A stretch of 64,000 nucleotides of DNA from Methanomassiliicoccaceae archaeon (GTDB taxonomy: Archaea > Thermoplasmatota > Thermoplasmata > Methanomassiliicoccales > Methanomassiliicoccaceae). Shown piece after piece: positions 1 to 64,000 of the stretch. The number at the start of each line of letters is the position of its first letter. Within the stretch, counting starts at the first letter, position 1. The translations under genes and the position numbers were made by a program. The notes beneath the pieces were generated by a model. It was given only the letters and a program-made list of their open reading frames with translations. It had not been told where the DNA came from and ran no database searches. The stretch covers positions 160,001 to 224,000 of the forward strand of contig CAVSJV010000003.1 of assembly GCA_963728405.1 (NCBI GenBank), written 5' to 3'.

Positions 1-1026
1 CTGTCGCTAAGTGATTTTGGAACCGGTTTACCGCAGCCAGAGCAATCGATGCTCGTGTTCCTCGGGTCGACTTGAACGAACAGCTTACCAGCGTTTTCAG
101 CTTTGTAAGCTAGTTTTTGGTTCAGTGAGCTCCAAGACGCATCGGATATACTTCTAGCCAGTCTATGGTTCTTGACCAAATTTCCTGGTTGCAGTTTCTC
201 GGTGACGATGAGATCGTAGTTATTAACATACTCTCTCGATAGTTTGTGCTGAAAGTCGTTTCTCTGGTTCTGAACTCTTTCGTATTGTCTTGCTACAATT
301 ATCCGCTTCTTCTCCCTGTTTTTAGATCCTTTCTGCTTCCTGCTCAATCGTCGTTGCTCTTTTCTCAGTTTCTTCAGCGCTTGCTTTAGGTGTCGAGGAT
401 TCTCGACCTCGTGGCCTCCGCTGTCGACGATATAATGCTCCAGGCCGACATCGAGACCTACTGCTTTTTCGATATCAATGATGTCGAAGTCACTTGAGCC
501 GTTGTCGACGATGATGTATGCATACCACTTACCGGACGGCATGTGCTTGATCGTCACCTGCTTGATCTCGCCTTCGATCGGACGATGCAATCGTATCGGA
601 ATATCGCCAATCTTCGATAGATGCAACAGACCGAACTTGTCGTTCTTAGGCAGCAAATTAAATCCTGACTGATTGAAAGTGAAGCTCCTGAAACTGTGCT
701 CGCTCTTAAATCGTAGATTGCCTACCTTGCGACCACGCTTCTTCATCTCCCTTAGTGCGGCGAGGTTAGCGAAAAGGTGTACGACTTCATATTGGAGCGT
801 CTTTGCATAAACAGTTTCCAAATCCTTGTCGGTCTTCTTCCAGATCGGCAGCAGAGATTGCAACGTTGGTCGATTATGCTCGCCGCCGTTGTACGTTTCC
901 AGTAAAAGATTATAAGTGTACTGACAAACTCCTTTGACCCATAACAGCTTCCGCTCATCCTCTTTGTTGGGGTGGATACGGAATTTATAGGCGAACGTGT
1001 CAGAGCACCGATATTCTTGACGACAT
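1..1026 (-). CDS. tnpB: RNA-guided endonuclease TnpB (3' end runs out of the window; nearest ATG at 1026 is out of frame)
   Basis: Manual translation: FAYKFRIHPN, GRKVGNLRFKS, RuvC-I AVGLDVGL, RuvC-II LIVTEKL, ISDASWS, YKAENAGKLFVQVDPRNTSIDCSGCG. Confidence 0.88.
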
Positions 1027-35937: not shown

Positions 35938-36498
35938 ATGATCTGCCCTCAATGCAAGTCCGGGGTCGCCGACGCGATCAATTTCTGCCCGAATTGCGGA
36001 ACGCCGAAGGCCAAGTTCCTGCCGGGCGGTACCTTTGCTCCTCATCAACCAGCATCCCCTATCCTGGCTCCCGTTCAGATCTCCCCCGCCGTTCTCCAAG
36101 CCCTATTCCTTCGCCCGGGGGAGCGCGCGGTCGGGGTCTGGAGGGCAGGCTATGTGCTCCCTGACCGCTCGTTCGATGATGAGGAGGCATCCACGCCCAT
36201 GACCCCTGGAATCTTAGTGGCCTCCGACCAGCGGCTCATCTTCGTGCAGGAGAAGGGCATACTGAACAAGAGCTACCGGCCGATGGATTCCATGGAACTC
36301 CGGCAGATAACCGGTCACCGGATCACCTCCCTGCTCAGGATGAAGGAGCTGGAGGTCGAGCTGCAGGACCAGAAGGGACGCAGAAAGCAACGGTTCTCTA
36401 ACCTGTACGAGATCGACCCCCTCTCCCTCAAGCCGCTCCGGCCGTCCACCCCGGATGAGGCTAGGTCCTTCTTCGGTAACCTGATCGGGGCGCGATGA
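35938..36498 (+). CDS. Zinc-ribbon protein with a PH-like C-terminal domain
   Basis: CPQC..FCPNCG; GILVASDQRLIF. Confidence 0.72.
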   Translation: MICPQCKSGVADAINFCPNCGTPKAKFLPGGTFAPHQPASPILAPVQISPAVLQALFLRPGERAVGVWRAGYVLPDRSFDDEEASTPMTPGILVASDQRLIFVQEKGILNKSYRPMDSMELRQITGHRITSLLRMKELEVELQDQKGRRKQRFSNLYEIDPLSLKPLRPSTPDEARSFFGNLIGAR

Positions 36499-36533
36499 GA
36501 GGGGAGCGGCCACCAGAACTGGAGCCTCATTAC

Positions 36534-36579
36534 AAACATGGAGCGAGAAAGCCCACGAATTTATTCGTGGGAGTGTCAA
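36534..36579 (+). mobile_element. 46-bp single-hairpin IS200/IS605 derivative
   Basis: TTAC|AAACATGGAGCGAG-AAAG-CCCACGAATTTATTCGTGGG-AGTG-TCAA: IS608-type target, guide, perfect hairpin and right cleavage motif. Confidence 0.8.
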
Positions 36580-37455
36580 GAATCGCGGATCCCGATGTCC
36601 TCGGCGACGAACCGCTTCTTAAGTTCGGTGAGGAATTCTGAGACGATCTCGTCGCGCTTGTTGATCTCACTGTATCCATATACGGATAGCGATCCGGACC
36701 CGACTGCCCTGGACGTCGACCACGTTCACCTGGGGGTTCAGCATGCTGAGATCGCAGCTGGAACCGAACAGGGCGCGAATGGAGGGACGCTCGAAGAGCT
36801 TAACGACCGCTTTCTTCTCCTCCTCGAGCACAAGCGGCAGGATACGAGGATGGATGTCCGCCTCATCGAGGACGATCTTCCTTATCCGCTCGAGATCACT
36901 GACCGGAGCGATCCACATAGGGACCGTCAGTGCTACGAAGCCGGCCTTCGTGTAGTTGACCACCTTGCCATTGATTATCTGTGAGTTCGGGACTATCGCG
37001 ATGCGCCCGTCCACATCCCGTAGTACGGTGGACATCAAGGTGATGTCCTTGACCCGGGATACCCCGGTGGTCGGGGCCAGACCGACCTCTATCCAATCTT
37101 CCAGCTGGATCGGCCTTGTGATGGAGATGATGAGCCCGGACAACATGTTCTGGATGATCTGCTGGGAGGCGAAGGCGATGACCACGCCCACCAAGCCCAG
37201 GGAGATGACAAGGCCGGTAAGCTGCAGCTGGAGCAACTCGCTGAAACCAATGATAGCGGCCGTGCCGATGATGACATACTGGGCGGTCCGAGCCACTACC
37301 TTGGACAGCCGACGACCTACCTTCTCGTCCAGGTTCCTCCTGATGAGCATGCTGGCGACCTTCCCCAACAGCACGCCCACGATCAGGAGGAGCGCGAAGA
37401 GGATCGAACTTGTGGCCGTTATGCCACCGATGATGGGCTCCTCCAACCAGCTCAT
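36576..37455 (-). CDS. MscS-family mechanosensitive channel (frameshift near 36668)
   Basis: FASQQIIQNMLSG, DWIE, VPNS; second frame EINKRDEIVSEFLTELKKRF..DS*. Confidence 0.88.
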
Positions 37456-48958: not shown

Positions 48959-49855
48959 ATGGCCAAGCTTCGCTCACTATTGCTCCGTAACTACCGTCGG
49001 TTCGCCGGCGAAATCGAGCTACCGCTGGACCCGGGGATCAACCTTATCGCCATCCCGGCCGGCCTGGGCAAGACCAGCATATTGGAGGCTGTTTCGTGGT
49101 GCCTGTTGGGGACAGAACTGGTCTGCGAACCAGAGCAGGTGCCCAACATCGAGGCACTGGGCAAGGGAATGGCCGATGTACTGGTGGGCCTGGAGTTCGT
49201 AAACGGCGAACGGCTGGAGCGGTTCGCTCTGTTCTCCTACGTGTCAGGGGGGGTCGAGCGGGAGGCCTGGGGATGGAGGCTGGTGGACGCCGCCAGCGGC
49301 AAAGTGATCATCGAAGGGGACGACGGAGATGATTTCGCCGACCAGCAGGAGCGGTTGTTCCCGGAGACCTGCGTTCACGCCAACCTGATCAATGGTCCGG
49401 CCCTCCGGAGAGCGGCGGAGGGCTGCCGCAGTGGGGTGGAGAGGGCGGTGAACAGCAGCAACAACTGGTGCACCAGCGATCTGTCCCTTAGGTGCTCGAT
49501 GGAGGCCACTGGCCTGTTCCTCTCCCTGTGCCCGCAAGCCCCGGTGAACGCTCTGAGCTACGGTCCCGAGGGCCGCCTGGAGGTGTCGGTGCATGGTCCT
49601 CTGACCGAGACCGAGGTTCGGCTGGCACTATTGAGCCACGCCGTGGCCTTCGCCAAGGAGAGCGCTAAGGTCTGCCCAATCTTCCTGGACGACCCCTTCG
49701 GCCAGGCCGATGAGCTTGACCATGCCGCCCTATTCAAGAGGATCGTGGAGATGCTCCCCTCCAGGCAGGTGGTGTTCCTGCTTTCGGGCCAGAAGGACAT
49801 CGCCGACTTGAGGTCCACCGGCAGGGTGGACAAGGAGCTGGAGATACGCGGATAG
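48959..49855 (+). CDS. SMC/Rad50/DndD-like ABC-ATPase head lacking the coiled coil, with degenerate motifs
   Basis: LRNYRRFAG, AGLGKTSILEAVSWCLLG, PIFLDDPFGQAD, QVVFL. Confidence 0.78.
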   Translation: MAKLRSLLLRNYRRFAGEIELPLDPGINLIAIPAGLGKTSILEAVSWCLLGTELVCEPEQVPNIEALGKGMADVLVGLEFVNGERLERFALFSYVSGGVEREAWGWRLVDAASGKVIIEGDDGDDFADQQERLFPETCVHANLINGPALRRAAEGCRSGVERAVNSSNNWCTSDLSLRCSMEATGLFLSLCPQAPVNALSYGPEGRLEVSVHGPLTETEVRLALLSHAVAFAKESAKVCPIFLDDPFGQADELDHAALFKRIVEMLPSRQVVFLLSGQKDIADLRSTGRVDKELEIRG

Positions 49856-49857
49856 GG

Positions 49858-50187
49858 TTGACACGCCCACCAATGAAGTCATGGAATCCAGAGGTCACCG
49901 TCGTTCCGAGCGTACTTCCTGAGGACCGGGTTCGCTGTCGCCGGGGGCAGACCTACATCTTTGGCATCCTTTGACAGTTATGCCGCCGGCCCGCTAAGCG
50001 AACTTCACCGCCCACCGGGCTTTCACTAACTCAGCACTGAAGTCTCGTCCGTGCTTGACCTTGAAGGTCAGGAGCGTCCACTTCCTCGATGGTCCGAGGC
50101 TATAAACGCATTACGGGAGGCCACTGAAAGTACTACTTATCGCAATTCATCCCACGATTCAAATCGTGGGCTTTCTTGCTCAAGGCC
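49858..50187 (-). mobile_element. 330-bp internally deleted IS200/IS605 element with a decayed tnpB 5' fragment
   Basis: Minus strand TTAC|GGCCTTGAGCAAG-AAAG-CCCACGATTTGAATCGTGGG left end; LLTFKVKHGRDFSAELVKAR..SKDAKDVGL..VLRKYARN; degenerate right hairpin ending GTGTCAA. Confidence 0.82.
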
Positions 50188-50224
50188 GTAAACTTCATCA
50201 CCTCTCCCGCTCAATGAAAGGGCC

Positions 50225-50548
50225 ATGAGCCCAGTGCAGACCATCCCTCCGAACGAGTTTGGCACTTTCAAAAAAGAGATCGAGGAGGGGAGATGCCTCC
50301 TTCTGGACGTCAGGGAGCCAAGAGAGTATGAGGCTGGCCACATCCCATCAGCGCAGACCCGACCCCTATCGCAGATGGCCCACTGGCCGAGCGAATTTGC
50401 CAAGGACCGGATGATCATTGTATATTGCCGCACCAGCAACCGCAGTCGGAGATGCGCCGAGCACCTGATGGCCCGAGGATTCCAGGACATGTACGTGCTA
50501 GAGGGGGGCTTCAGCGCCTGGTCCTTGGGCCGGCCCGGACCAAAATGA
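50225..50548 (+). CDS. Rhodanese-like protein
   Basis: LLDVREPREYEAGHIP, YCRTSNRS, LEGG. Confidence 0.9.
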   Translation: MSPVQTIPPNEFGTFKKEIEEGRCLLLDVREPREYEAGHIPSAQTRPLSQMAHWPSEFAKDRMIIVYCRTSNRSRRCAEHLMARGFQDMYVLEGGFSAWSLGRPGPK

Positions 50549-50588
50549 ATAATAATATCTCCGCCCAACTCGATCTCGGATCGAGAAT

Positions 50589-51042
50589 ATGATGCCCGCG
50601 GCACCTAGGGAGATGCGGGGAATGGGATGGCGGATACCTGCCAGCATCCTCATCGCCGTAGGTTGGCTCGCGTTCATCGTGATCTGGCTGTTCTTCTTCG
50701 CTTCGGATTATAGCATCTACAAGAACCTGGCCATCCTGTTCGTATCGGCCCTCATCGGCATGGTCGTTCTAGTCGCCATGTGGATAGGTTTCGGGCTGCG
50801 CATGGGAATGATGTATGCCCCGGACCGCCGCGAATGGACCGACTACCGCAACAGTTCGGTGGAGGGGGGCGTTCAGCGTTCTGGTAGTGTTGGCCTGGTC
50901 GGCGTTCTTGCTCATATGGTTGTTCGTTTACGCCGACAGCCATACTGGCTATCAGAACATCGCAGTTATCTTTGTCTCCCTGCTCATCGCCGGAGGACTG
51001 TCCGCATCGATCTGGAGCAGATGGTGGCGCTACTATCGTTGA
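50589..51042 (+). CDS. Membrane protein, paralog of 44720-45160 (frameshift near 50850)
   Basis: FIVIWLFFFA..YKNLA / LIWLFVYA..YQNIA repeats. Confidence 0.72.
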
Positions 51043-62193: not shown

Positions 62194-63411
62194 ACTCCGG
62201 GCGATAGGAAGCCCACCATTAAAATCGTGGGAGGAATCGTGCCAAATCCTATTACGTATTGAAGCATATCATCCCTCCGTGCTCCTGACTCACAAGGTCA
62301 AACTGCTCCCTACCGAGGAGCAGGGGGCCGCTCTGCTGGAGACCATGGAACGGTTCAACGAGGCTTGTGACTTCGTTGCTGTCGCTGCATTCCGTATCCA
62401 GTCTGCCAATAAGATGCGCCTCCAGAAAGAGGTCTACTATGAGCTGAGGGAGCGCTATGAGCTCCCTGCTCAACTGGCCATCCGCGCTATAGCCAAGGTC
62501 TGCGAGGCGTACAAGCACGACAAAACCATCCGGCCTAGCTTCGACAAGCATGGTGCGGTGGTCTACGACCAGCGCATCCTGTCTTGGAAAGGTCCAGATC
62601 GTGCATCCTTGGTGACTGTTTACGGAAGAACGATCATGCCCTTCCTCTCTTGCGATTATTACGAATCGAGGAAAGACATCGTTCGCTGCCAGGCAGACCT
62701 TATCTTGCAGAACGGTGTTTTTTACTTGTGCGTCATCGTCGAAGTTCCCGAGGCCGATGAGATTAAGCCACTTGATGCTCTCGGTGTCGATCTCGGCATT
62801 GTCAACATCGCGGTCGATTCCGACGGTGAGGTTCATTCCGGTGAAGCCATCTGTAAAACTAGAAAACGCAATGCCAAGCTGTGCTCCACTCTGCAATCCT
62901 GTGGTTCGAGGTCTGCTAAAAAGCATCTCAAGAAGCTTTCCGGTAAAGAAAAGAAGTATCAAAGGGACATTAACCACTGCATCTCCAAGCGTATCGTCGC
63001 GAAGGCCAAAGACACGAAGAGAGCGGTCGTCCTCGAAGATTTGGGGGGCATCCGTTCTCGGACTGCGGTTTCTAAGGCACAGCGTCGCGACCTCCACGCT
63101 TGGGGATTCCACCAACTCCGCTCTTTTGTTGAGTACAAGGCGAAAATTGCTGGAATCCCAATAGTTTTCGTCGACCCAAGAAACACCTCGCGAACTTGCC
63201 CAGTCTGCGGGTGCGTTGACCGGAAGAACAGAAAGACCAGAGATAATTTCGAGTGTGTTCGGTGCGGGTTCGCTGGTCTGGCCGACCACATAGCAGCTAT
63301 TAACATAGCTGCCGGGGGTCGAGTCAACGACCCTATCGTGACGGGGGATTTTTTGAGCCATGTTGGTCCACCTCAGTCGCAAGCCCACAGAGTCATTCAT
63401 GGGTAGTTGAC
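62194..63411 (+). mobile_element. Complete tnpB-only IS200/IS605 element
   Basis: TCAC|ACTCCGGGCGATAG-GAAG-CCCAC/GTGGG left end; CAAG-CCCA/TGGG-TAGT-TGAC right end. Confidence 0.88.
62279..63406 (+). CDS. tnpB: RNA-guided endonuclease TnpB, 375 aa, catalytic triad intact
   Basis: LGVDLG, VVLEDL, CPVCG/CVRCG zinc finger, ADHIAAINI. Confidence 0.93.
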   Translation: MLLTHKVKLLPTEEQGAALLETMERFNEACDFVAVAAFRIQSANKMRLQKEVYYELRERYELPAQLAIRAIAKVCEAYKHDKTIRPSFDKHGAVVYDQRILSWKGPDRASLVTVYGRTIMPFLSCDYYESRKDIVRCQADLILQNGVFYLCVIVEVPEADEIKPLDALGVDLGIVNIAVDSDGEVHSGEAICKTRKRNAKLCSTLQSCGSRSAKKHLKKLSGKEKKYQRDINHCISKRIVAKAKDTKRAVVLEDLGGIRSRTAVSKAQRRDLHAWGFHQLRSFVEYKAKIAGIPIVFVDPRNTSRTCPVCGCVDRKNRKTRDNFECVRCGFAGLADHIAAINIAAGGRVNDPIVTGDFLSHVGPPQSQAHRVIHG

Positions 63412-63412
63412 C

Positions 63413-64000
63413 TCACAGATCGTTTCCTGAATAGGACAGGTTGAAGCTCTTGTTGATCAGCGGGAAGTCCGGGACGATGTTGCCCAGGACGGCCTGCTCC
63501 ATCGACAGCCAGTTGCTGAAGGAAGCGTCCCGGATCTTATGCCGGAAGGGCATCCCTTTGCCGGCCATGATCCAGTGGACCAGCTCCCCCCGCGGCGATT
63601 CCACCAAAGAGAATGCGGTGCCGCCAGCGGGGATGTTTCCGACCTTGGTACGATACGGCCCGGTGGGCATGCCGTCCAAGGCCTGCTCGATGATGGAGAA
63701 CGATTCGCGGACCTCATCCATCTTGATCCTCATGCGCGCGTTAACGTCCCCCGCGGTCTGCTTGGGCACCAGGAAGTTCAGTCGTCCGTAAGCGGCGTAA
63801 GGATGATCTCTCCGCACGTCCCGATCGATGCCGCTGGCCCTGGCCACTGGACCGACCACGTTGAACTCCCGCGCCAGCTCCTTGCTCAGGACCCCGGTGG
63901 TCTCCACCCGATCCAGCATGGATGGTGACGATAGCATGAGGTCCACCAGATCCTCGAACTCCAGCTTCAGCTTGACCAGCGCGGCCAGGATCTTGACCTT
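63413..64000 (-). CDS. Ehr/Hyf-type large subunit lacking C-terminal Ni-binding cysteines (partial)
   Basis: GPVARASG, GDVNAR, VESPRGE, ends NKSFNLSYSGNDL instead of DPCxxC. Confidence 0.88.
   Translation of the reverse strand, partial: KVKILAALVKLKLEFEDLVDLMLSSPSMLDRVETTGVLSKELAREFNVVGPVARASGIDRDVRRDHPYAAYGRLNFLVPKQTAGDVNARMRIKMDEVRESFSIIEQALDGMPTGPYRTKVGNIPAGGTAFSLVESPRGELVHWIMAGKGMPFRHKIRDASFSNWLSMEQAVLGNIVPDFPLINKSFNLSYSGNDL

What the first reader, a model, noticed from the sequence alone, without database searches (positions are those of the whole stretch)
36530..36590. 46-bp solo-hairpin IS605 derivative that silently swaps a host stop codon
Seen: TTAC, a 14-nt leader, AAAG, a perfect hairpin CCCACGAATTTATTCGTGGG, then AGTG-TCAA, with nothing else in between. 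Known: in IS608 the left cleavage site TTAC is read by an AAAG guide at the hairpin foot, and the right end finishes in TCAA. Inference: left and right ends collapsed into one hairpin by recombination, giving a minimal REP-like unit. Removing 36534-36579 turns the mscS 3' end from GAT TCT TGA into GAT TCG TAA, so the protein (D-S-stop) is unchanged. The target supplies TAA and the element end supplies TGA. This suggests a neutral insertion niche at stop codons that also adds a hairpin between convergent genes.
Basis: partly seen in the sequence, partly recalled or inferred. Interest (0 to 1): 0.75.

Follow-up and report, generated by a model that had tools for sequence, protein, structure and literature searches.

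The report
One-hairpin transposon remnant at stop codon
A 46-base leftover of an IS608-type insertion sequence, collapsed to a single hairpin, sits exactly on the stop codon of a channel gene in an archaeon and supplies a replacement stop; leftovers of this kind are already described, so it is a clean example rather than a new system.

Summary
The sequence is exactly as described: TTAC (36530-36533), 14-nt leader, AAAG, perfect 8-bp/4-nt hairpin (36552-36571), AGTG-TCAA (to 36579). It is a hybrid of the two ends of an IS608-type IS200/IS605 family present in this archaeal genus. Its left part matches left ends (TTAC|~15 nt-GGAGCAAGAAAG-hairpin). Its hairpin and tail match right ends (GAAT-hairpin-AGTGTCAA|). 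Relatives hold 1.3-kb, 1.2-kb, ~350-bp and ~230-bp members, and the window holds a 330-bp one.

This one-palindrome collapse by repeat-mediated deletion is already published for Haloquadratum (52-bp "terminal-only PATEs", PMC3119063). The unit is a singleton: 1 copy in its genome and 1 of 261 genomes of the order. No Y1 transposase was found in the genome, and the right-end guide GAAT is missing, so it is most likely an immobile fossil, not a REP-like family.

The stop-swap arithmetic is right and the MscS C-terminus position is conserved in 9 of 9 relatives. However, this assembly's mscS is frameshifted about 90 nt upstream, and no relative shows the inferred TTAC/TAA.

The "stop-codon niche" has some support. 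In 5 of 20 right ends in the family (4 of 19 without this one), TCAA supplies the TGA stop of a convergent Pfam-supported gene. The baseline is about 5-7%.

The parts
36530..36533 (+). TTAC: target / left cleavage site (CL), not part of the element. Its complement GTAA would have held the inferred original TAA stop of mscS.
   Evidence: TTAC flanks every left end of this family seen in relatives. The role of TTAC in IS608 is from PMC3201880 (passages).
36534..36551 (+). Left-end leader (14 nt) plus the AAAG guide (GL); 18 nt between TTAC and the hairpin foot.
   Evidence: It matches left ends ...GGAGCAAGAAAG-hairpin of G003:C37, G010:C31, G010:C3, G021, G023 and window 50187, whose leaders are 17-19 nt. 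In IS608 the distance is 19 nt (PMC3201880).
36552..36571 (+). Single subterminal hairpin CCCACGAA-TTTA-TTCGTGGG, the TnpA binding-site type.
   Evidence: By inspection it is 19 of 20 identical to the right-end hairpin of G003:C37 and 17 of 20 to that element's left-end hairpin.
36572..36579 (+). Right-end tail AGTGTCAA ending in the right cleavage site TCAA (CR).
   Evidence: It is 8 of 8 identical to the tails of right ends in the own genome (C3:63052, C3:307985, C5:236792) and in relatives.
36576..36578 (-). TGA stop of the mscS 3' frame, supplied by the element's TCAA.
36579..36668 (-). Last 30 codons of mscS, out of frame with the main ORF in this assembly.
   Evidence: tblastn with the G003 protein: residues 274-302 in frame -3, 26 of 29 identical. 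There are 11 synonymous against 4 non-synonymous codon differences to G003.
36667..37455 (-). mscS main ORF (262 codons) ending prematurely at TGA 36667-36669; the frameshift lies near 36668-36672.
   Evidence: Pfam MS_channel_2nd, 1.2e-17. Alignment to G003.
35938..36498 (+). Convergent upstream gene (186 aa, N-terminal zinc ribbon); its stop lies 35 nt before the unit.
   Evidence: the zinc-ribbon hits are below the curated cut-offs.
49858..50187 (-). 330-bp internally deleted member (PATE) of the same IS family: TTAC (50188-50191), left end, the first ~58 codons of tnpB, and a degenerate right end ...CGTGTCAA.

Best explanation
Window 36534-36579 is a terminal-only remnant of an IS608-type IS200/IS605 element. 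A parent element, either a tnpB-carrying copy or an already shortened PATE, inserted 3' of a TTAC whose complement (G|TAA) overlapped the mscS stop codon. Because this family's right end finishes in TCAA (complement TTGA), the insertion itself recreated an in-frame TGA and changed only the wobble base of the last sense codon (TCG to TCT, Ser). Later the interior and one copy of the near-identical subterminal hairpin were lost by repeat-mediated deletion between the left-end and right-end hairpins. That left the left leader with its AAAG guide, one hairpin and the right tail. The product has one TnpA binding site, no GAAT guide for its TCAA and no transposase in the genome, so it is an immobile fossil. 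Shown here: the hybrid anatomy, the family and its deletion series, singleton status, and absence of the unit from orthologous loci. Inferred: the order of events, the ancestral TAA and the immobility.
For: Anatomy. Family with the same ends in the same genus: G010:C31 has TTAC|19-nt leader ending AAAG-hairpin-ATGAATTGCGA, a Y1_Tnp remnant (Pfam 4e-06), a 339-aa TnpB (Pfam 6e-22) and the right end GAAT-hairpin-AGTGTCAA, 1,332 bp in all. Shorter members are G010:C3 ~1.24 kb, G003:C37 351 bp, G023:C12 ~227 bp, G021:C9 ~360 bp and window 49858-50187, 330 bp. The own genome holds decayed copies with the same right tail and tnpB fragments 52-90% identical to the G010 TnpB. The IS608 code TTAC/AAAG and TCAA/GAAT is from PMC3201880 and PMC5934647 (passages). 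The collapse mechanism is documented: in Haloquadratum, deletion between the two near-terminal palindromes (22- and 19-bp direct repeats) turns a PATE and a 1500-bp tnpB element into 52-bp terminal-only versions (PMC3119063, passages). Singleton status: 1 unit in the genome and 1 of 261 genomes of the order. No Y1 transposase in the genome, and only 2 of 41 sampled relatives have any. The unit is absent from the mscS 3' flank in 9 of 9 relatives, and the closest relative (81% identity) is ~47 nt shorter there. The MscS C-terminus is at the same position in 9 of 9 relatives. The same one-hairpin architecture recurs in bacteria: 16 loci, 12 of them with TTAC 13-15 nt before AAAG although TTAC was not in the pattern. 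Parent left and right ends occur in the same cyanobacterial genomes.
Against: No strain with the full parent or a true empty site at this locus was found. The closest relative is too diverged for its intergenic spacer to be aligned. None of 9 relatives has TTAC/TAA at the mscS stop; all use TGA, two of them as TTGA, so the ancestral TAA rests only on the transposition rule. The genome is 93.75% complete, so a transposase could be unassembled. PMC3119063 reports six strain-specific insertions of a 52-bp version and suggests such units might move. The Prochloron MAG has two near-identical one-hairpin units at different loci. The mscS frameshift means the swapped stop is not the one used by the ORF as assembled.
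Confidence: 0.8

Rival explanations
1. The 46-nt one-hairpin unit is itself a mobile mini-element (a minimal PATE or REP-like unit) that inserted in its present form, moved in trans by a Y1 transposase.
For: [quoted passage not shown] There are two near-identical units at different loci in one Prochloron MAG. In three bacterial genomes the unit is the only exact match to the right-end tail pattern CGNGGNAGTGTCAA.
Against: There is a single copy in this genome and the unit occurs in 1 of 261 genomes of the order. No Y1 transposase was found here. The unit has AAAG but not the GAAT guide that reads TCAA, and only one hairpin for a dimer that binds two. Removing GR or CR prevents a robust synaptic complex in vitro (PMC3201880, passages). 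In Prochloron the units are 2 of 17 right-tail matches, against 11 ordinary GAAT-type ends, so repeated collapse is enough to explain them.
Confidence: 0.12
2. Whatever its origin, the hairpin is now kept for a host function: a 3' end or stability element for the convergent mscS and zinc-ribbon transcripts, or a brake on termination because it starts 4 nt after the stop.
For: It lies between convergent genes and begins 4 nt after the TGA. Its last bases are now the stop codon, so imprecise loss would be selected against (inference).
Against: No terminator-like site was found on either strand (0 found). There is no run of five or more T next to the hairpin. There is no Rfam match above noise. 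It is absent from 9 of 9 relatives. No RNA data could be obtained.
Confidence: 0.06
3. It is a chance intergenic palindrome unrelated to insertion sequences.
For: None beyond its small size.
Against: There is a 28-nt match with 2 mismatches (E 9e-05) and exact 17-18-nt matches to right ends in the same genome. It matches both left-end and right-end consensus in relatives. 0 of 100 shuffles give any match.
Confidence: 0.01

Closest known systems
Terminal-only PATEs of Haloquadratum walsbyi (HqIRS46 and ISHwa23 derivatives, 52 bp; PMC3119063, passages read)
   Same: It is derived from IS200/IS605-type elements, reduced to fused termini with one copy of the near-terminal palindrome, about 50 bp, non-coding and archaeal. 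The proposed origin is repeat-mediated deletion between the two palindromes.
   Different: It comes from a different archaeal lineage and IS subfamily (TTAC/TCAA code, CCCACGA stem) and is 46 rather than 52 bp. There is one copy here, against several there. No full/collapsed strain pair is available here. An overlap with a host stop codon is not mentioned in the passages I read.
IS608 of Helicobacter pylori (IS200/IS605 family; PMC3201880 and PMC5934647, passages read)
   Same: It has the same cleavage and guide code: TTAC left flank, AAAG 5' of the hairpin foot and an end in TCAA. The family's true right ends carry GAAT. The spacing is similar (18 against 19 nt on the left).
   Different: It has no tnpA or tnpB, one hairpin instead of two, and no GAAT. 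The tail is 8 nt in total, whereas TCAA lies 10 nt from the foot in IS608.
REP / BIME elements with RAYT (TnpA-REP) transposases
   Same: It is a short extragenic hairpin with a conserved tetranucleotide 5' of the stem, related to IS200/IS605 ends (the relation is recalled; PMC3479197 was seen only in a search listing).
   Different: REPs are high-copy and come with a RAYT gene. Here there is one copy and no Y1-family gene.
Solo LTRs of retroelements (analogy only)
   Same: The interior is lost by recombination between the element's own direct repeats, leaving one hybrid repeat as a footprint.
   Different: The element class is unrelated, and the repeats here are 20-nt hairpins, not LTRs.

Membership tests
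IS200/IS605, IS608-type ends | Inserted 3' of the target tetranucleotide TTAC, which lies 17-19 nt 5' of the left hairpin foot | tested here: met
   TTAC at 36530-36533, 18 nt before the foot. Relatives have 17-19 nt. IS608 has 19 nt (PMC3201880).
IS200/IS605, IS608-type ends | Left guide AAAG immediately 5' of the hairpin foot | tested here: met
   36548-36551. GL = AAAG in PMC5934647.
IS200/IS605, IS608-type ends | Element ends in the right cleavage site TCAA a few nt 3' of a hairpin | tested here: met
   AGTGTCAA at 36572-36579, identical to the family's right tails.
IS200/IS605, IS608-type ends | Right guide GAAT 5' of the right-end hairpin | tested here: not met
   The only hairpin is preceded by AAAG. 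True right ends of the family have GAAT.
IS200/IS605, IS608-type ends | Two subterminal hairpins, one per TnpA monomer | tested here: not met
   There is one hairpin in 46 nt.
IS200/IS605, IS608-type ends | Encodes tnpA and/or tnpB, or has a cognate TnpA in the genome | tested here: not met
   46 nt, non-coding. PF01797 gives 0 matches in the genome, which is 93.75% complete. tnpB copies are present: 16 PF07282 matches.
Terminal-only PATE (PMC3119063) | Fused left and right termini around a single copy of the near-terminal palindrome, about 50 bp | tested here: met
   Left leader plus guide, one hairpin and right tail, 46 bp.
Terminal-only PATE (PMC3119063) | Parent elements carry the palindrome as a direct repeat at both ends | tested here: met
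   G003:C37, G010:C3 and G023:C12 elements have CCCACGA...TCGTGGG at both ends.
Terminal-only PATE (PMC3119063) | Complete and core-deleted versions at the same locus in different strains | not testable with these tools
   The closest genome held is 81% identical. No sequencing run was listed and there was no metagenome relative.
REP with RAYT | Many copies per genome and a RAYT (Y1) gene | tested here: not met
   1 copy; no PF01797 match.
Intrinsic-terminator-like hairpin | G+C-rich stem followed by a T run | tested here: not met
   0 terminator-like sites in 36300-36800.

The most novel reading that the evidence does not exclude
The TTAC target and TCAA end of IS608-type elements form a built-in stop-codon safe harbour. 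Insertion at any G|TAA stop read from the other strand regenerates TGA in frame (GTAA becomes TTGA). On this reading these elements, and the one-hairpin fossils they leave, accumulate preferentially on stop codons of convergent genes. They are then locked in because their last bases have become the host stop. The one-hairpin form may also still be mobilisable in trans.
Probability: 0.12. Interest if true: 0.55.

Novelty: new member of a known kind. Interest (0 to 1): 0.33.

Why it matters
The unit gives a clean, fully dissected archaeal example of how IS200/IS605 elements decay to a roughly 50-bp one-hairpin footprint. The same footprint recurs in cyanobacteria, Nitrospira, Ktedonobacteria and Clostridia, which is useful for annotating short orphan hairpins and for dating IS extinction in a lineage without a transposase.

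The one possibly new point is the stop-codon rule. In this family a quarter of surviving right ends supply the TGA of a convergent gene. If that holds in a proper census it would be a simple, general way in which a transposon's end sequence lowers the cost of insertion. I found no paper stating it in three searches.

The evidence here is small (5 of 20), and a survival filter explains it without any special mechanism.

Tried and rejected
- Public sequencing runs for 36200-37000, wanted to check the frameshift and look for alleles with or without the unit: none was listed.
- Metagenome contigs searched with the MscS protein for a closer strain: 138 pattern matches, none a relative. I did not use the second scan.
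- Rfam at permissive threshold on 36300-36800: only a noise hit, E 0.93.
- Terminator/promoter scan: 0 sites.
- One-hairpin pattern in 261 genomes of the order: only the window itself. The pattern was exact, so degenerate copies would be missed. G011:C25 (L044) may be one such.
- Generic search in the own genome for TTAC-leader-hairpin-TCAA with any guide: 3 sites against 3 in the reversed-genome control, so nothing beyond the unit itself.
- I considered that the native stop was TCT TGA, as in two relatives that end in TTGA, and that the boundaries differ. I rejected this because cleavage 3' of TTAC and 3' of TCAA fixes the junctions in this family; it remains an inference.
- I considered a link between the unit and the TnpB guide RNA. 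The unit keeps only the last hairpin and 8 nt of the right end, too little for a guide-RNA scaffold (inference, not tested).

Full report
**Observation**

It reads TTAC, a 14-nt leader AAACATGGAGCGAG, AAAG, the perfect palindromic hairpin CCCACGAA-TTTA-TTCGTGGG (36552-36571), AGTG and TCAA, followed by GAATCGCGG.

The hairpin dominates the predicted fold of the 76-nt surroundings: -11.7 kcal/mol, z = -2.16, 5 of 200 shuffles as good. With up to three mismatches the 20-mer is found 4 times in the window against none in 100 shuffles. Two of those four are the palindrome itself on both strands. The other two, 50151-50170 and 62212-62231, turned out to be ends of other IS200/IS605 elements.

The genome is an archaeon: the archaeal SSU model scores 1168 bits and wins its clan. 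It has 2.73 Mb in 18 contigs and is 93.75% complete.

**What family it belongs to**

The genome has no Y1 (IS200-type) transposase, with 0 PF01797 matches. It has 16 matches to the TnpB zinc-ribbon domain, many of them in shortened frames.

A short-word BLAST of the unit against the genome gave matches to its hairpin-plus-tail half:
- C3:63025 (28 nt, 2 mismatches, E 9e-05)
- C3:307969
- C5:236808(-)

All of these read ...GACCTCAGAAT-hairpin-AGTGTCAA and lie just after tnpB 3' ends or fragments of them. The same BLAST matched the unit's leader-plus-hairpin half at window 50150-50181(-), which reads TTTAC|GGCCTTGAGCAAGAAAG-hairpin-ATGAATTGCG.

Relatives in the same genus and family show what these pieces are.
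- G010:C31 (L038) carries a 1,332-bp element. It has TTAC, a 19-nt leader ending AAAG, a hairpin and ATGAATTGCGA. It then has a decayed Y1 transposase remnant (Pfam 4e-06), a 339-aa TnpB (Pfam 6e-22) and GACCTCAGAAT-hairpin-AGTGTCAA.
- Shorter members with the same two ends are G010:C3 (~1.24 kb), G003:C37 (351 bp) and G023:C12 (~227 bp), and G021:C9 (~360 bp).
- The window itself holds a 330-bp one at 49858-50187(-), with a degenerate right end.

TTAC/AAAG on the left and GAAT/TCAA on the right are exactly the cleavage and guide tetranucleotides of IS608 (PMC5934647 and PMC3201880, passages read). The latter also gives TTAC 19 nt 5' of the left hairpin foot. So the family is IS608-type, and the 46-bp unit is a hybrid. 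Its 18 nt before the hairpin are a left end, and its 8 nt after the hairpin are a right end. By inspection, its hairpin is 19 of 20 identical to a right-end hairpin (G003:C37) and 17 of 20 to that element's left-end hairpin. This places the junction in the first bases of the stem.

**How it arose**

The simplest route is deletion between the two near-identical hairpins of a parent element, which are direct repeats. This is not new. In Haloquadratum walsbyi, comparison of two strains showed the same loss of the core and one palindrome copy. A PATE with a 22-bp palindrome repeat and a 1500-bp tnpB element with a 19-bp repeat both shortened to 52-bp "terminal-only" versions. The authors attribute this to repeat-mediated deletion (PMC3119063, passages read).

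I could not observe the event at this locus. The closest genome held (G003) is 81% identical. It lacks the unit, its spacer is about 47 nt shorter, and its spacer is otherwise not alignable.

**Is it a repeated or mobile unit?**

Evidence that it is not:
- A search of the own genome for TTAC, a 16-20-nt leader ending in AAAG, a perfect stem of 6 or more, a short tail and TCAA finds only this unit. With any guide it finds 3 sites, against 3 in a reversed-genome control.
- The pattern that joins a left guide and a right tail around one hairpin occurs in 1 of 261 genomes of the order, namely this one. The pattern was exact, so degenerate copies would be missed.
- Y1 transposase was found in only 2 of 41 sampled relatives: one intact copy in G013 and fragments in G010.
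- The unit has no GAAT to read its TCAA and offers one hairpin to a dimer that binds two. In vitro, removing the right guide or the right cleavage site prevents a robust synaptic complex (PMC3201880, passages).

I therefore read it as an immobile fossil. The reservations are:
- PMC3119063 mentions six strain-specific insertions that all carry the 52-bp form.
- A scan of all species-representative genomes found 16 bacterial loci with the same one-hairpin build (Nitrospira, Ktedonobacteria, Clostridia, a Solirubrobacteraceae MAG and nine cyanobacterial loci). Twelve of them have TTAC 13-15 nt before AAAG although TTAC was not in the pattern. One has TTAT and three have neither.
- One Prochloron MAG has two near-identical units at different loci.

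Against those reservations, the Prochloron units are 2 of 17 right-tail matches beside 11 ordinary GAAT-type ends and 4 others. Ordinary left ends with the same leader exist in Prochloron and Scytonema, including a ~1.35-kb element in Scytonema. Repeated collapse is therefore a sufficient explanation.

**The stop codon**

On the minus strand the text reads CGC GAT TCT TGA. Without 36534-36579 it would read CGC GAT TCG TAA TGA. The arithmetic is right.

It follows from a general property of this family. The target TTAC reads GTAA on the other strand and the element end TCAA reads TTGA. Any insertion on a G|TAA stop therefore recreates TGA in frame and changes only the last sense codon from NNG to NNT.

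The MscS homologues of 9 of 9 relatives end at the same position, with (R/K)(D/S/N)(P/G/S)-stop. RDS-stop is therefore the native C-terminus.

There are three caveats.
1. In this assembly the stop is out of frame with the main ORF. The 262-codon ORF ends at 36667 (...IRIWIQ*), and the last 30 codons are in another frame, because of one extra base relative to G003. Those 30 codons differ from G003 at 11 synonymous and 4 non-synonymous codons. That frame was therefore translated until recently, or the extra base is an assembly error. I could not check reads.
2. None of the 9 relatives has TTAC/TAA there. All use TGA, so the ancestral TAA is inferred from the transposition rule only.
3. The swap happened when the parent inserted, whatever its size, and is not a property of the 46-bp form.

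**Is there a stop-codon niche?**

I took every match to GGRAGTGTCAA in the 24 genomes of the family, 34 matches in all. I classed them by context (together).
- 20 are right ends of this IS family.
- 12 are chance or genic matches and were dropped.
- 2 had no locus and were not assessed.

In 5 of the 20 right ends, an open frame of 100 or more codons on the opposite strand ends exactly in the element's TGA. All five are Pfam-supported genes:
- the window's MscS, with the frameshift caveat
- G010:C31, peptidase M48
- G023:C12, NAD-dependent epimerase
- G021:C8, nucleotidyl transferase
- G021:C9, a VWA-domain protein

The inferred changes of the last codon are silent in three (TCG>TCT, CGG>CGT twice). 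The other two are Glu>Asp and Gln>His.

The two other frames at the same 20 sites are open for 100 or more codons in 2 of 40 cases. Fisher's one-sided p is 0.036, or 0.088 without the window.

For a baseline I used a crude gene proxy for this genome. Of 8,194 TTAC sites, 119 (1.45%) overlap a G|TAA stop. That is 5.0% of the sites that are either intergenic or stop-overlapping. Four of 19, leaving the window out, then has binomial p = 0.014.

Among the 16 bacterial one-hairpin units, 3 end a Pfam-supported gene (luciferase-like, DUF421, MlaE). Among 12 ordinary GAAT-type right ends in Prochloron and Scytonema, none does.

The idea therefore has some support in the archaeal family. The sample is small, the genomes are related, and the baseline is rough. 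Survival of only harmless insertions explains the excess without any targeting.

**Function of the hairpin**

No terminator-like site was found on either strand. No Rfam family matched above noise. There is no run of five or more T beside the stem. The unit is absent in 9 of 9 relatives. I found no evidence for a host function, and no RNA data were obtainable.

**Verdict**

The unit is a singleton fossil of a decaying IS family and a new member of an already described kind (terminal-only PATE), not a REP-like family. The stop-codon regeneration rule is a neat corollary that I did not find stated in three literature searches (only listings and the passages named above were read). It deserves a proper census.

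Noticed in passing
window 36667-36672 (minus strand): mscS carries a one-base frameshift relative to the closest relative (window ATACAGTGAGATC, G003 ATCCGTGAGATC). The assembled ORF therefore stops 30 codons early. The downstream frame still shows 11 synonymous against 4 non-synonymous differences, so the shift is recent or an assembly error.
   Followed up: partly
window 49858-50191 (minus strand): A 330-bp internally deleted element of the same IS family. Its right end stops 2 nt after the TAG of the convergent 298-aa ORF 48959..49855. The co-directional ORF 50137..50604(-) runs through TTAC and ends inside the left end.
   Followed up: partly
window 62212-63420: A tnpB element of another subfamily: left hairpin CCCACCATTAAAATCGTGGG preceded by GGAAG, a 375-codon ORF 62279..63406(+), and an end ...GGGTAG|TTGAC. 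A long antisense ORF 62252..63400(-) overlaps it.
   Followed up: no
window 1-134 (G000:C3:159937-160134, minus strand): A further tnpB zinc-ribbon match straddles the start of the window. It belongs to a subfamily that ends ...GGGTAG|TTCAC.
   Followed up: no
L051-L066 (bacterial genome records): One-hairpin units (TTAC, ~14 nt, AAAG, hairpin, AGTGTCAA) occur in Nitrospira, Ktedonobacteria, Clostridia and many cyanobacteria. In the Ktedonospora, Clostridium and Nitrospira genomes checked, the unit is the only exact match to the right-end tail pattern in the genome.
   Followed up: partly
L044 1402-1470 (G011:C25): A left-end leader and hairpin followed by GGAGTTAAAT instead of ATGAATTG, with TCAC instead of TTAC upstream. 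This may be a degenerate second one-hairpin unit in the family.
   Followed up: no
41 genomes of the order: Y1 transposase is nearly absent (2 of 41 genomes, one intact copy), although tnpB genes and IS608-type ends are common. The same puzzle is noted for Haloquadratum in PMC3119063.
   Followed up: no
L047 1413-1432 and L049 3730-3749: Another hairpin family, CTGGAAG-CCCAC..GTGGG-AGGATGTCAC, shares the CCCAC stem with the unit but has different guide and tail sequences.
   Followed up: no
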